The position numbers are program-made. A stretch of 64,000 nucleotides of DNA, from NCBI RefSeq assembly GCF_017348835.2, contig NZ_CP071375.1; one strand, written 5' to 3'. This document shows, piece by piece, positions 21,001 to 24,000 of the stretch. Source of the DNA: Escherichia coli. GTDB taxonomy: Bacteria; Pseudomonadota; Gammaproteobacteria; Enterobacterales; Enterobacteriaceae. Positions within the stretch are counted from its first letter, which is position 1; each line of letters opens with the position of its first letter.

Positions 21001-24000
21001 AATCTCAATTATCATGCGTTAATAGCTGCGTCGGTTTGAAAGACAGACAGCATACAAAGTAGTTTACTAAAGCAGTTCTCATTATCAGGCATTATCCCCT
21101 TCTTTTGAGTCTCTCTCCTGAACACTAAGTAGTTTCTGTATTAAAGCCCTGTTTGCCGAAAGGCCCAAAATGAAGGAAGTAAAATATGTCTAATAAAATG
21201 ACTGGTTTAGTAAAATGGTTTAACGCAGATAAAGGTTTTGGCTTTATCACTCCTGATGATGGCAGCAAAGACGTTTTCGTCCATTTCACCGCCATCCAGA
21301 GCAATGAATTCCGCACGCTGAACGAAAATCAGAAAGTTGAATTTTCTATTGAGCAGGGGCAACGTGGCCCCGCGGCAGCGAACGTTGTTACGCTCTAAGG
21401 TTGCCGTTATTACTCAACATCTCCATTTCCGCTGTCCATGTTGTCATGGTTCACAGTACCGCACATCGGCATTCGATGTGACGGAGCGAAACCCTTTGGG
21501 CGCTAAGTGTATTTTTTGTAAATCGACGATGATCACCTTTGATAACGTCGCGCTGCAAATACGCACTGACCATGCGCCGCTGGATTTCACAAAATAATAT
21601 CAGGCTCCCTCGTGGAGCCTTTTTTATATCTGCCTTATTTTTCTTCAACGCTGTATGTATAGTAAGCGATAACCTGTTGATTATTGAATCTTTCGGGGAG
21701 ATGGCTTATAACATTTCTTACCTGACCAGGGTACCGGGAACCAACACCTTACTGGCGTGTTGCTGTCTTTCAAGACCAGACGAGGTTAACAGTGAATATT
21801 GAAGAGTTAAAAAAACAAGCCGAAACGGAAATCGCCGACTTTATCGCGCAAAAAATCGCCGAGCTGAACAAGAATACAGGGAAAGAAGTCTCTGAAATTC
21901 GCTTCACCGCACGAGAAAAAATGACCGGGCTTGAAAGTTATGATGTCAAAATCAAAATAATGTGATTTTGTGAACATCACCCGTGCGAGGTGATGTTCCG
22001 CTTGTTGCTAATTTAGTGACCAATCATTGGCGCTTGTGGAATTAAGCGTCGGTACAATTCATCCGGTACCGGGCTTTGCCATACTCCCGCATACATTGCG
22101 TAACCAATCACCGCAAACATAATCCCCAGAACCAGTAGCGTCATTAACCAGCCAGACAACGCAAAAGCTTTTTTATTTGCCGCAGGTTTTTGCAGTGAAA
22201 AGGTCAATGTTGAGGCTACCGGACATGACTCTACGCAAGTCATACAGCCGGTACATTCCACTGTTCGTACCTGAATTAATTTATCTACCGGGATCCGTGA
22301 TGGGCAATTTTTTGCGCATTTGCCACAATCGATACAACTTTCGGCATTGCGACGAATCTTAAACGGCGACAATAGCGAAACCACGCCCATCAGCGCGCCA
22401 TATGGGCAAAGATAACGACACCAGGCATGGCGAATAAACAGGCTGGCAATCAGCAAAACAGTCACGCTGATTAATGTCGCGGTCCCCATATGACGAAAGA
22501 AATCGAGCATTTTAACGTCCATCACCACGCTGTAGGGCGACAACATAAAATAGTGAATCGCCTGAGCGGGCATCAATAACGCGATATAGAGAAAAAAACT
22601 CAACAGCAAATACTTTACACCGCGCAGAGGAATATCCAGCCAGCGGGGAAGGACACATTGCCGACCAAACAGTTTGTTACCGAGAGCGCCGATTAATTCA
22701 GAAAGCGTACCAACCGGGCATAACCATGAGCAAAAGGCCTTTTTGAGTAATAGACTGATGACGATAAAAGCGACCAATAACAGCATCGCGGCGGCGTGGA
22801 CGGACGGTAACTGACCTGTTGCAAGGCTATATTTCAGATTCATCAGACCGGCAATCGGTAGCCAGCCTTCTATACCTCCCGGTCTGGCGACAAATATCGT
22901 ACTACCTGCCGTTTCGTAATAGCGCACCCAATACCAGAACGTGATGGCAATATAAATATTCATTGCCAACAGTAATAATTGCGTCGCTTTACGCCAGGTC
23001 GTGGCATTGCGCCAGTCATTCCACGGTAATTTGCCGCCCGTCGTGCCTGGCCGCCGCTGCCAGCGGGTTCTTTTATTCTCTGCCATGATTTTGCCAGTCC
23101 GTTAAGTTGCATACCAAATGCCACTATTCTAGTTGTTCTTAACTGGCTGATATTGATTCAAATCGCGTTCAGGTCTTTCTTATGCAACCATGCTTCAAGA
23201 GCGGCAACACTGCGTGTAATTTCTTCGTGTGGAAGGGGGGCAGATAATGGCTGCTGCTCCAGTTGTGCGCATAGCTGACTGGCGCTACGCATTCCCAGAC
23301 TCGAGCAACTGCTTTTTAGCTGATGCGCGGCACGCTTTATTTTATCGCTATCCTGACTGGCGCGGGCAATGTCGATTTCATCGAGAAGCGGCAGGGCATG
23401 TTGTGTAAATAATACCAGCCATTCGTGGATCTTCTCCGTCCCCATTAACTGAGCATCTTCATTGAGTTGCGATACATCCAGCGATTGATCGTTATTGACT
23501 TGCAGTTGGAGATAGTGCGCCAGTAACTGACCGAGCACTTCACGCGGCACCGGTTTAGGGATAATCCCGCGGAATAATGAACTGGTACGCTGGCGCAGCG
23601 TTTCGTCAATGACATGGGCGCTAAAGCCAATCAAAACCAGCGACGGATATTGCTGTGCCAGTTGTCGGGCAAGCGTAATGCCGTCGATATCCGGCAGATC
23701 AAAATCCACCAGTGCGGCAGCAAACGGTTCGCTATTTTGCAGTGTCTCTAAAGCCTGCGCGGCATTGCCAATAGCAACAACCTGCGCACCACTGGTGTTC
23801 AGCATCTCAACGGTAATTCGCTGGGTTAGCGGGTTATCTTCAATTAACAGCAAACGTAAACCGTCAAGACGCACCGCCTGATTGGCTGTTTTTGGCACGG
23901 GTGCAGTGGCAACACGTAACGGCAAGCGTAAACAAAAACAGCTTCCAACCTCCGGCGTGCTGGTGGCGCTCAGTTCGCCGCCCATCGCCTGGGCCAGACG

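What the first reader, a model, noticed from the sequence alone, without database searches (positions are those of the whole stretch)
21409..21965. Three overlapping small genes ymcF-ymcE-gnsA with non-ATG starts
ymcF (probable ATT start, four-Cys zinc ribbon), ymcE and gnsA (GTG start) overlap one another by 26 and 11 bp in different frames immediately after cspG. This dense overlap suggests translational coupling within a cold-shock-associated small-protein cluster. Neither ymcF nor gnsA appears in the ORF track, and the ymcF start is a deduction.
Basis: partly seen in the sequence, partly recalled or inferred. Interest (0 to 1): 0.3.

Follow-up and report, generated by a model that had tools for sequence, protein, structure and literature searches.

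The report
cspG-ymcF operon, dubious ymcE, separate gnsA
The three overlapping small ORFs are real and already annotated in E. coli, but they are not one coupled unit: ymcF (ATT start) is tied to the cold-shock gene cspG before it, gnsA has its own promoter, and "ymcE" between them is probably not a gene.

Summary
RefSeq and K-12 annotate exactly these coordinates: ymcF 21409-21597 (ATT), ymcE 21572-21802 and gnsA 21792-21965 (GTG), overlapping by 26 and 11 bp.

The ATT start is well supported.
- In 118 loci where ymcF lies 9-10 nt behind an intact csp gene, the aligned codon is ATT (112) or ATC (6), never ATG.
- The csp stop codon forms the ribosome-binding site there (TAAGG or TGAGG).
- Of 41 loci without an intact adjacent csp, 37 have ATG at or beside that position.

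The proposed ymcF-ymcE-gnsA coupling is not supported.
- A position-conserved intrinsic terminator follows ymcF (hairpin 21602-21620). Published Term-seq puts an RNA 3' end at 21625/21626, inside ymcE.
- Published Cappable-seq puts the strongest local start site at 21720, also inside ymcE and 72 nt before gnsA.
- ymcE has no Shine-Dalgarno sequence and no third-codon-position bias.
- Its start or reading frame is damaged in all six more divergent Escherichia genomes sampled.
- It is absent beside gnsA/gnsB homologues in most Citrobacter and in all phage loci.

Best reading: a coupled cspG-ymcF bicistron, then a separate gnsA unit. This is known biology with a dubious annotation and a modest new comparative point.

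The parts
21030..21185 (+). cspG transcription start (21030) and 156-nt cold-shock 5' UTR
   Evidence: Rfam RF01766 cspA thermoregulator matches 21030-21452 at 158.8 bits against a gathering score of 78. Cappable-seq TSS at U00096.2 1050528 maps to window 21030.
21186..21398 (+). cspG coding sequence (70 aa, ATG start, TAA stop)
   Evidence: NCBIfam equivalog NF007378, E 1.3e-53. RefSeq annotation. Variable sites by codon position 5/3/24 across Escherichia.
21396..21408 (+). stop/start junction: the cspG TAA plus GG forms the ymcF Shine-Dalgarno AAGG (21397-21400), followed by an 8-nt spacer
   Evidence: T(A/G)AGG and a 9-10 nt gap are kept in 40 csp-linked genome loci and 78 phage or prophage loci. 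Anti-SD duplex energy is -4.0 kcal/mol. No conserved RNA structure was found at the junction.
21409..21597 (+). ymcF coding sequence (62 aa, ATT start); putative zinc-ribbon protein with Cys9/Cys12 and Cys34/Cys37
   Evidence: PF23641 full-length match, E 1.6e-49. RefSeq and K-12 annotation. Variable sites 4/2/24 by codon position. Within E. coli, 10 synonymous and 2 non-synonymous differences. 19 invariant residues in 34 homologues.
21602..21626 (+). Rho-independent terminator of the cspG-ymcF transcript: stem AGGCTCC/GGAGCCT, 5-nt loop, T6
   Evidence: Pattern scan. A hairpin plus T-run lies within about 0-10 nt of the ymcF stop in most csp-linked loci, with different stem sequences. Term-seq 3' ends at K-12 1051901 and 1051900 map to window 21626 and 21625, with intrinsic terminator score 8.09 and no Rho dependence.
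21572..21802 (+). annotated ymcE ORF (76 codons); probably not a functional coding gene
   Evidence: No Shine-Dalgarno sequence (+1.3 kcal/mol). Variable sites 12/7/11 by codon position. Within E. coli, 2 synonymous and 5 non-synonymous differences. The start codon is AGG or ATA in four of six more divergent Escherichia genomes, and four of six carry a frameshift or in-frame stop. No hit outside Escherichia except C-terminal fragments in two Citrobacter loci, and none in the viral set. The ORF spans the terminator and the gnsA promoter and 5' UTR.
21684..21720 (+). gnsA promoter: -35 TTGAAT (21684-21689), 17-bp spacer, -10 TATAAC (21707-21712), TSS at 21720
   Evidence: Cappable-seq TSS at U00096.2 1051218, score 74.8, is the strongest in the region and maps to window 21720. 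Hexamers with 17-bp spacing are conserved upstream of gnsA in Escherichia and Citrobacter. No variable site at 21650-21767 in 9 E. coli genomes.
21720..21791 (+). gnsA 5' UTR (72 nt) with Shine-Dalgarno GAGG at 21782-21785
   Evidence: TSS mapping. Anti-SD duplex energy -6.6 kcal/mol. AGAGGT followed by GTG or ATG is conserved in all gnsA/gnsB loci aligned. No stable or conserved structure.
21792..21965 (+). gnsA coding sequence (57 aa, GTG start)
   Evidence: PF08178, E 7.6e-36. Matches solved structures 4XO1 and 4XO2 over residues 1-57. Variable sites 7/1/17 by codon position. Homologues start with ATG or GTG at the same position.
21972..22003 (+). gnsA 3' hairpin and transcript end
   Evidence: Term-seq primary 3' end for gnsA at K-12 1052279 in all three conditions. 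This maps to about window 22003 after allowing for a 1-nt indel.

Best explanation
The region holds two transcription units, not one chain of three coupled genes.

Unit 1 is a cold-shock bicistron.
- It starts at 21030 and carries the cspA-type 5' UTR, then cspG, then ymcF.
- It ends at an intrinsic terminator, with the RNA 3' end at 21625/21626.
- ymcF encodes a conserved 62-aa Cys4 protein, probably a zinc ribbon.
- ymcF starts at ATT 21409, 10 nt after the cspG stop. Its Shine-Dalgarno sequence is built from that stop codon (TAAGG).

Inferred mechanism for unit 1: ribosomes that have just terminated on the heavily translated cspG reinitiate at the weak AUU. This ties YmcF synthesis to CspG synthesis and keeps it at a low fixed ratio. 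Lineages that lose the upstream csp replace ATT with ATG, usually with a stronger Shine-Dalgarno sequence.

Unit 2 is gnsA. It has its own promoter (TSS 21720), a 72-nt leader, a GAGG Shine-Dalgarno sequence and a GTG start.

The annotated ymcE ORF is the open frame that happens to run across five elements: the ymcF tail, the terminator, a spacer, the gnsA promoter and the gnsA leader. Its two overlaps are by-products of that layout, not coupling devices.

Shown here: the transcript boundaries, the conservation patterns and the start-codon covariation. Inferred: reinitiation as the mode of ymcF initiation, zinc binding, and that ymcE makes no functional protein.
For: Annotation and families.

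Start codon and csp linkage:
- Among 81 genome loci, 40 have an intact csp 9-10 nt upstream. All 40 have ATT (37) or ATC (3) at the aligned position.
- Of the 41 loci without an intact adjacent csp, 37 have ATG at the aligned position or within three codons of it.
- 78 of 79 phage or prophage loci are csp-linked, all with ATT (75) or ATC (3).
- Natural controls: Klebsiella and Raoultella keep a decayed csp 3' end and have ATG. Citrobacter sedlakii has a degenerate csp fused in frame and has ATG. Citrobacter braakii carries both types about 3.5 kb apart.
- A rough gene-tree parsimony count gives about 6-7 independent switches, with 77 of 81 loci concordant.

Coding signatures:
- Third-position bias for cspG, ymcF and gnsA but not for ymcE.
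- Synonymous/non-synonymous counts within E. coli: ymcF 10/2, gnsA 4/0, ymcE 2/5.
- ymcE start or frame lesions in all six more divergent Escherichia genomes.
- No Shine-Dalgarno sequence at the ymcE ATG.

Transcript ends and starts:
- The terminator is predicted and position-conserved, with varying stem sequences.
- It is seen in vivo by Term-seq (PMC7815308).
- Cappable-seq start sites (PMC4782308) lie at 21030 and 21720. No plus-strand start site is listed between 21112 and 21671.

Phage paralogue: the module csp-ymcF-terminator-ynfN-gnsB has the same ATT junction and no ymcE.

Literature:
- AUU starts give 6-8 times less expression than AUG. The thrS-infC junction UAA GGU AUU gets about half its initiation from reinitiation (PMC3592434).
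- AUU mRNAs compete especially poorly at low temperature (PMC5499595). This makes free-standing initiation an odd choice for a cold-shock gene.
Against: - No direct translation data for ymcF or ymcE could be read here. The cold-shock ribosome-profiling paper and the small-protein supplements are not held.
- Four unlinked loci still have ATT with no nearby ATG (L040, L063, L068, L075). ATT can therefore persist without csp.
- The ymcF Shine-Dalgarno sequence is moderate, so some independent initiation is likely.
- ymcE is intact in every E. coli genome sampled.
- The paralogous locus has a 21-aa ORF, ynfR, that also runs through the terminator. That protein was detected by tagging after cold shock (PMC6001520). 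Read-through translation of ymcE therefore cannot be excluded.
- ymcE is listed as an antitoxin in Pfam and in toxin-antitoxin reviews.
- The Term-seq and Cappable-seq data are not from cold-shocked cells, where terminator read-through could be higher.
Confidence: 0.75

Rival explanations
1. ymcF, ymcE and gnsA form one translationally coupled chain on the cspG transcript, and the 26-bp and 11-bp overlaps pass ribosomes from one gene to the next.
For: - The overlaps exist.
- cspG, ymcF and ymcE change together in one transcriptome study.
- Terminators leak, and a terminator-spanning ORF (ynfR) in the paralogous module is made after cold shock.
Against: - An RNA 3' end lies at 21625/21626, between the ymcE start and gnsA.
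- The dominant gnsA start site at 21720 excludes the ymcE start codon.
- The ymcE ATG is not conserved and has no Shine-Dalgarno sequence.
- In Citrobacter and in phages, gnsA/gnsB lie about 220-640 nt from ymcF with other sequence between them.
Confidence: 0.08
2. ymcE-gnsA is a type II toxin-antitoxin pair. YmcE is the antitoxin, made from the same message just ahead of the toxin GnsA.
For: - Pfam names PF15939 YmcE_antitoxin and PF08178 GnsAB_toxin.
- RefSeq calls GnsA an addiction module toxin.
- ymcE-gnsA is listed among E. coli toxin-antitoxin pairs (PMC8484670).
- The upstream-gene overlap resembles a toxin-antitoxin layout.
Against: - ymcE is missing next to gnsA/gnsB homologues in most Citrobacter loci and in all phage loci.
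- It is damaged in the other Escherichia lineages while gnsA stays intact.
- It shows no purifying selection.
- The main gnsA mRNA lacks the ymcE start.
- gnsA-only plasmids rescue growth in several backgrounds rather than killing cells.
- A gnsA deletion mutant and a gnsA overexpression strain were both constructed and studied.
Confidence: 0.07
3. ymcF is not initiated at ATT. Either it starts at a TTG inside cspG (21385 or 21337), or it is made as a CspG-YmcF fusion by a +1 frameshift or read-through at the cspG stop.
For: - The ymcF frame is open back to TTG 21337.
- In Citrobacter and Salmonella the junction reads CTT TAA G, which resembles the prfB shift site.
- In C. sedlakii a csp-ymcF in-frame fusion exists.
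Against: - Many csp-linked genomes have no canonical in-frame start between the preceding stop and the ATT, for example L008, L016, L026, L028, L036, L037, L041, L044, L047, L048, L055 and L060.
- The TTG candidates have no Shine-Dalgarno sequence (-2.0 and +0.1 kcal/mol).
- The gap is 9 nt in most Kosakonia-group loci and 10 nt elsewhere, so the frame relation to csp is not conserved.
- E. coli has the non-slippery CTC TAA.
- Unlinked homologues start with ATG exactly at the aligned codon.
Confidence: 0.05

Closest known systems
Qin-type lambdoid prophage module cspI - ynfQ (ymcF paralogue) - ynfR - ynfN - gnsB
   Same: The order is the same: a csp gene, then a 10-nt gap with TGAGG, then an ATT-start YmcF-family gene, then a hairpin terminator, then a gns gene with its own upstream region. 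The csp+ymcF block and the gns block are each about 74% identical to the window. The module is present in about 2,100 of 5,426 complete E. coli genomes.
   Different: The phage module has ynfN and the 21-aa ynfR between ymcF and gnsB, about 490-515 nt in all. The chromosomal locus has only 194 nt there, and that stretch is annotated as ymcE. No ymcE homologue occurs in the phage loci.
thrS-infC junction of E. coli (AUU start of IF3)
   Same: An AUU start lies directly behind the stop codon of the preceding cistron, in the sequence UAA GGU ... AUU. Initiation is weak and is contributed in part by reinitiation (PMC3592434).
   Different: The infC gap is 3 nt and the ymcF gap is 10 nt. The infC AUU is the sensor for IF3 autoregulation (PMC5499595). 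No such feedback is known or tested for ymcF. Here the non-ATG codon covaries with the presence of the upstream gene.
cspA-family cold-shock mRNAs (Rfam RF01766)
   Same: cspG has the long 5' UTR and matches the family model above threshold. The start site at 21030 agrees with the start of the model match.
   Different: By my own knowledge, the cspA mRNA is monocistronic; this was not checked here. The cspG message carries a second, coupled cistron before its terminator.
GnsA/GnsB family (PF08178; PDB 4XO1, 4XO2)
   Same: gnsA in the window matches the crystallised protein over residues 1-57. Reported phenotypes are multicopy suppression and more unsaturated fatty acids at low temperature.
   Different: There is no difference in the protein. 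The difference lies in its annotation as a toxin paired with YmcE, which the data here do not support.
Small zinc-ribbon proteins (MqsA N-terminal domain; ECs_2282 family)
   Same: They share two Cys-x2-Cys knuckles in about 40 residues. The best structural matches of the YmcF model are zinc ribbons. There is a weak HMM match to NF047912 (E 0.003).
   Different: None of the matches is significant. Foldseek E is at least 0.17, and the model pLDDT is 61 overall and 72-79 in the core. YmcF also has an extra conserved Cys11-His13.

Membership tests
YmcF-like small protein (Pfam PF23641) | Full-length match to the family HMM above the gathering score | tested here: met
   166.4 bits against a cut-off of 27, covering residues 1-62 of 62.
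YmcF-like small protein (Pfam PF23641) | Conserved CPCCHGSQYR ... GAKCIFCK motif (Cys9, Cys12, Cys34, Cys37) | tested here: met
   Cys9, Cys12 and Cys37 are invariant. Cys11, His13 and Cys34 are at least 90% conserved in 34 homologues.
YmcF-like small protein (Pfam PF23641) | Zinc binding and a zinc-ribbon fold | tested here: inconclusive
   The AlphaFold2 model has pLDDT 61 overall and 72-79 in the core. Zinc ribbons are the top Foldseek hits, but E is at least 0.17. Metal binding cannot be tested with these tools.
Translationally coupled bicistron (cspG to ymcF) | Both cistrons lie on one transcript with no internal promoter | tested here: met
   Start site at 21030, no plus-strand start site listed between 21112 and 21671, and an RNA 3' end at 21625/21626.
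Translationally coupled bicistron (cspG to ymcF) | A short, conserved stop-to-start distance with the ribosome-binding site at the upstream stop | tested here: met
   A 9-10 nt gap and T(A/G)AGG in 40 genome loci and 78 viral loci.
Translationally coupled bicistron (cspG to ymcF) | Downstream translation depends on upstream translation | not testable with these tools
   This needs a premature-stop reporter experiment. The only support here is the covariation of ATT with csp linkage.
   The terminator 3' end at 21625/21626 and the major start site at 21720 both fall inside ymcE.
   The ymcE ATG is AGG or ATA in four of six more divergent Escherichia genomes. The ORF is absent elsewhere.
Type II toxin-antitoxin pair (YmcE antitoxin / GnsA toxin) | The antitoxin gene co-occurs with the toxin gene across genomes | tested here: not met
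   gnsA/gnsB homologues in most Citrobacter loci and in all phage loci have no ymcE.
Type II toxin-antitoxin pair (YmcE antitoxin / GnsA toxin) | The antitoxin is a protein-coding gene under purifying selection | tested here: not met
   Codon-position counts 12/7/11, 2 synonymous against 5 non-synonymous differences within E. coli, and frameshifts or stops in relatives.
Type II toxin-antitoxin pair (YmcE antitoxin / GnsA toxin) | Co-transcription from a promoter upstream of the antitoxin | tested here: not met
   The main start site at 21720 lies 148 nt downstream of the ymcE ATG.
Type II toxin-antitoxin pair (YmcE antitoxin / GnsA toxin) | The toxin arrests growth and the antitoxin neutralises it | not testable with these tools
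   The papers read here report that gnsA-only plasmids rescue growth. The original toxin-antitoxin evidence could not be read.
Intrinsic (Rho-independent) terminator | A G+C-rich hairpin followed by a U tract, with an RNA 3' end in vivo that does not depend on Rho | tested here: met
   7-bp stem with 5 G-C pairs, then T6. Term-seq 3' end, Rho score 0.51 (marked 'No') and intrinsic score 8.09.
cspA thermoregulator (Rfam RF01766) | Score above the family gathering threshold | tested here: met
   158.8 bits against 78, over 21030-21452.
GnsA/GnsB family (Pfam PF08178) | HMM match and identity to the solved protein | tested here: met
   122.3 bits against 27. Matches 4XO1 and 4XO2 at E about 1e-31 over residues 1-57.

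The most novel reading that the evidence does not exclude
The AUU (or AUC) start of ymcF is a selected device, not a neutral oddity. It makes YmcF synthesis depend on ribosomes terminating at the csp stop codon embedded in its Shine-Dalgarno sequence, giving obligate reinitiation on a cold-shock mRNA. Evolution switches it to AUG, usually with a stronger Shine-Dalgarno sequence, each time the upstream csp is lost. That would be a clean natural example of a start codon covarying with operon context. As a corollary, the YmcE antitoxin family in Pfam and in toxin-antitoxin lists would be an annotation artefact laid over a terminator and a promoter.
Probability: 0.45. Interest if true: 0.45.

Novelty: already known. 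Interest (0 to 1): 0.25.

Why it matters
All three genes and the ATT start are already in the K-12 and RefSeq annotation, so the finding itself adds little. Three things may still be useful.
- It gives a documented reason to treat ymcE, and with it the GnsA/YmcE toxin-antitoxin label that is propagated to thousands of genomes, as doubtful.
- It gives a correct operon map for a cold-shock locus: a cspG-ymcF bicistron and a separate gnsA unit.
- It shows a tidy comparative pattern, ATT or ATC when ymcF sits behind csp and ATG when it does not. That makes a testable case for reinitiation-dependent use of a near-cognate start codon in the cold, where AUU normally performs worst.

Tried and rejected
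- Conserved RNA structure masking the ymcF start. RNAalifold on 19 junctions gave no pairs, so classical unmasking-type coupling was dropped.
- A structured gnsA leader. The minimum free energy z-score is +1.2 and only a 3-bp consensus helix appears.
- A structure-based function for YmcF. The model has modest confidence and Foldseek against the PDB gave nothing with E below 0.17. The sequence profile against the PDB gave only weak metal-site look-alikes.
- A csp-type 5' UTR in front of stand-alone ymcF copies. Rfam found none in eight loci.
- Recoding to a CspG-YmcF fusion, or TTG starts inside cspG. Rejected on the variable 9/10-nt gap, the lack of conserved starts and the absence of a Shine-Dalgarno sequence.
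- Alignment of the phage gnsB upstream region with the gnsA promoter. Only a 12-nt block is shared, so the promoter claim is limited to the Escherichia and Citrobacter gnsA loci.
- Papers and supplements that could not be read:
  - Zhang 2018, cold-shock Ribo-seq.
  - Sugai 2001.
  - Weaver 2019 (journal version not held; bioRxiv supplements not held).
  - Conway 2014 supplements.
- Full-text searches for ymcF found no paper on its discovery or its start codon.
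Full report
**What is in the sequence.** The window is E. coli chromosome, 100% identical over the queried stretch 21100-22100 to NZ_CP048605.1. It differs from K-12 MG1655 at three positions in the 21030-21965 region. The window coordinate equals the K-12 U00096.3 coordinate minus 1,030,275.

- cspG at 21186-21398.
- An ATT at 21409 opening a 62-codon frame to 21597.
- An ATG at 21572 opening a 76-codon frame to 21802.
- A GTG at 21792 opening a 57-codon frame to 21965.
- Overlaps of 26 and 11 bp.

RefSeq/PGAP and the K-12 record annotate the same four CDS with the same ends, including the ATT start of ymcF, b4723. Pfam has a family for each protein: PF23641, PF15939 and PF08178. 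GnsA has solved structures, 4XO1 and 4XO2.

**The ATT start of ymcF.** YmcF homologues occur across Enterobacteriaceae. An alignment of 34 shows 19 invariant residues, including Cys9, Cys12 and Cys37, with Cys34 at least 90% conserved.

I fetched 80 genome loci and 80 viral loci and read the codon aligned with E. coli ATT.
- In the 40 genome loci where an intact csp gene ends 9-10 nt upstream, the codon is ATT (37) or ATC (3). The csp stop is always followed by GG, giving TAAGG or TGAGG as the Shine-Dalgarno sequence.
- In 78 of 79 usable viral loci the arrangement is the same, with ATT in 75 and ATC in 3. The one exception is cut by a contig end.
- Of the 41 genome loci without an intact adjacent csp, 37 have ATG at that codon or within three codons of it, often behind AGGAG.
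- Twelve csp-linked genomes have no canonical in-frame start between the preceding stop and the ATT. Counting canonical start codons only, ATT is then the only start that keeps the first Cys pair.

Three natural controls point the same way.
- Klebsiella and Raoultella retain a recognisable but decayed csp 3' end and have ATG.
- Citrobacter sedlakii has a degenerate csp fused in frame and has ATG.
- Citrobacter braakii carries a csp-linked ATT copy and an unlinked ATG copy about 3.5 kb apart.

A rough gene tree suggests 6-7 independent switches, with 77 of 81 loci concordant. Four loci are exceptions, with ATT and no csp: L040, L063, L068 and L075.

ymcF is clearly under protein-level selection. 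Variable sites by codon position are 4/2/24 across Escherichia. Within E. coli there are 10 synonymous and 2 non-synonymous differences.

**How ymcF is probably translated.** No conserved RNA structure spans the junction, so coupling by unmasking of a hairpin is unlikely. The layout has four parts: the stop codon inside a moderate Shine-Dalgarno sequence (-4.0 kcal/mol), an 8-nt A/T-rich spacer, and a near-cognate start. It resembles the thrS-infC junction UAA GGU AUU. Reporter work on that junction attributed about half of initiation to reinitiation and found AUU 6-8 times weaker than AUG (PMC3592434). AUU mRNAs also compete especially poorly at low temperature (PMC5499595). That makes a free-standing AUU an odd choice for a cold-shock gene.

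I infer that ribosomes terminating on the very heavily translated cspG reinitiate at AUU. This would tie YmcF output to CspG at a low ratio. The step is inferred, not shown.

A CspG-YmcF fusion by recoding is unlikely, because the gap is 9 nt in most Kosakonia-group loci and 10 nt elsewhere, and E. coli lacks a slippery site. TTG starts inside cspG are not conserved and lack a Shine-Dalgarno sequence.

**Transcript boundaries.**
- *Terminator.* A hairpin plus T-run lies at 21602-21626. Most csp-linked loci have a terminator within about 0-10 nt of the ymcF stop, with different stem sequences. Conservation of position but not of sequence suggests function. Published Term-seq data place RNA 3' ends at K-12 1,051,901 and 1,051,900, which map to window 21626 and 21625. 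They are classed there as internal to ymcE, with intrinsic terminator score 8.09 and no Rho dependence (PMC7815308).
- *Start sites.* Published Cappable-seq start sites are in U00096.2 coordinates, 777 lower than U00096.3. They map to 21030 (score 9.0), exactly where the Rfam cspA match begins. They also map to 21720 (score 74.8), the strongest in the region. No plus-strand start site is listed between 21112 and 21671 (PMC4782308).
- *gnsA promoter.* The start site at 21720 sits 8 nt after a TATAAC -10 element (21707-21712), with TTGAAT 17 bp upstream. The same hexamers and spacing are conserved before gnsA in Escherichia and Citrobacter.

So ymcF has no promoter of its own and shares the cspG transcript. 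gnsA is mainly made from its own promoter, with a 72-nt leader and a good Shine-Dalgarno sequence (-6.6 kcal/mol). Neither data set is from cold-shocked cells, so the degree of terminator read-through in the cold is unknown.

**What ymcE is.** The annotated ORF covers the ymcF tail, the terminator, a spacer, the gnsA promoter and the gnsA leader.
- Its ATG has no Shine-Dalgarno sequence (+1.3 kcal/mol).
- Across Escherichia its non-overlapping part varies evenly by codon position (12/7/11), unlike its neighbours.
- Within E. coli it shows 2 synonymous and 5 non-synonymous differences. There are six protein variants in nine genomes, against one for GnsA.
- The stretch 21650-21767 has no variable site at all in nine E. 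coli genomes. That fits constraint on the DNA (promoter and leader) rather than on a protein.
- Outside E. coli proper, all six more divergent Escherichia genomes sampled have a lesion. The start is AGG in three and ATA in one. There is a frameshift in E. whittamii, in Escherichia sp. E1V33 and in strain E69, and an in-frame stop in SCPM-O-B-8794.
- Citrobacter gnsA loci and all phage gnsB loci lack ymcE.

The phage module is csp, then ymcF, then a terminator (with ynfR running through it), then ynfN and gnsB. The chromosomal locus looks like the same module with the middle removed: the csp+ymcF and gns blocks are each 74% identical, and only a 12-nt block is shared between them.

The toxin-antitoxin label rests on family names and review lists. 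The papers I could read report that gnsA alone rescues growth in several backgrounds. From memory, the original evidence for the GnsA-YmcE pair is thin, but I could not read it.

One caution remains. The 21-aa YnfR, which also reads through the homologous terminator, was detected by tagging and is cold-induced (PMC6001520). Low-level read-through translation of ymcE therefore cannot be excluded. Lack of conservation argues against function, not against translation.

**YmcF function.** This remains unknown. The AlphaFold2 model is modest, with pLDDT 61 overall and 72-79 in the core. Its best structural neighbours are zinc ribbons, headed by the MqsA N-terminal domain, but none is significant. 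A zinc-ribbon nucleic-acid or protein binder acting alongside Csp proteins is a reasonable guess and no more.

**Verdict.** The ORFs, the overlaps and the non-ATG starts are real and already annotated. The proposed coupling along ymcF-ymcE-gnsA is not. The evidence favours a coupled cspG-ymcF bicistron, an independent gnsA unit, and a spurious or at best very young ymcE. Novelty is low. The covariation of start codon with csp linkage and the case against ymcE are the only points that go beyond the databases.

Noticed in passing
window 21555-21635; L014 2647-2726 and L023 2647-2725 (Salmonella): The Rfam sRNA family STnc220 (RF02077) matches the last ~40 nt of ymcF plus its terminator in Salmonella at 102-103 bits, against a gathering score of 60. 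The same place in the window scores 34 bits, below threshold. The 'sRNA' therefore looks like the 3' end of the csp-ymcF mRNA, or a 3'-derived fragment of it.
   Followed up: partly
L083 1693-1758 (phage Tritos); Qin-type prophages of E. coli: The 21-aa YnfR is tag-detected and cold-induced (PMC6001520). Its ATG lies 3 nt after the stop of the ymcF paralogue, and it is read through the terminator hairpin. This may be a second reinitiation step in the phage module. The YmcE N-terminus covers the homologous hairpin.
   Followed up: partly
L019 2290-2689 (Citrobacter sedlakii): The csp gene upstream of ymcF has lost its RNA-binding motifs (VKEFNAEKGFGF, VFVPSSAIQ) and its stop codon. It now runs in frame into ymcF, which here starts with ATG.
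   Followed up: partly
L013 and L082 (Citrobacter braakii ATCC 51113, same contig, about 3.5 kb apart): One genome holds two ymcF copies. One is csp-linked with ATT. The other sits behind a decayed csp 3' end and has ATG.
   Followed up: partly
window 21650-21767: No variable site occurs in 118 nt among nine E. coli genomes, although neighbouring coding third positions vary freely. This stretch holds the gnsA promoter and the first part of the leader. The reason for such tight conservation is not explained by the promoter hexamers alone.
   Followed up: partly
window 21316 (K-12 1,051,591): Term-seq lists an RNA 3' end inside cspG in one growth condition (PMC7815308, supplementary file 1). The authors also cloned the cspG 5' UTR plus ORF. 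This may reflect premature termination or processing within cspG.
   Followed up: no
window 21671, 21728, 21778, 21808, 21828: Cappable-seq lists minor plus-strand transcription start sites around and inside gnsA, with scores of 2-12, in addition to the main one at 21720.
   Followed up: no
YmcF residues 9-15 (window 21433-21453): The motif CPCCHGS resembles Rieske box II (CPCHGS). This produces weak HMM hits to cytochrome b6-f iron-sulfur subunits (E 0.02-0.2). It is probably a chance resemblance between metal-binding knuckles.
   Followed up: no
L040 and L068, about 2475-2510: In two of the four unlinked loci that keep ATT, a mini-ORF (MKKGYYYY or MKKGHYYY) ends in a TAA that overlaps the ATT ACT AA of ymcF. 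An upstream ORF may substitute for csp there. It is absent in L063.
   Followed up: no
window 20688-20900 (minus strand) and 20956-20978: cspH lies divergently upstream of cspG and has its own terminator-like hairpin. In K-12, IS1D lies just beyond cspH. The resemblance to a lambdoid phage module suggests the whole cspH-cspG-ymcF-gnsA block may be of prophage origin.
   Followed up: no
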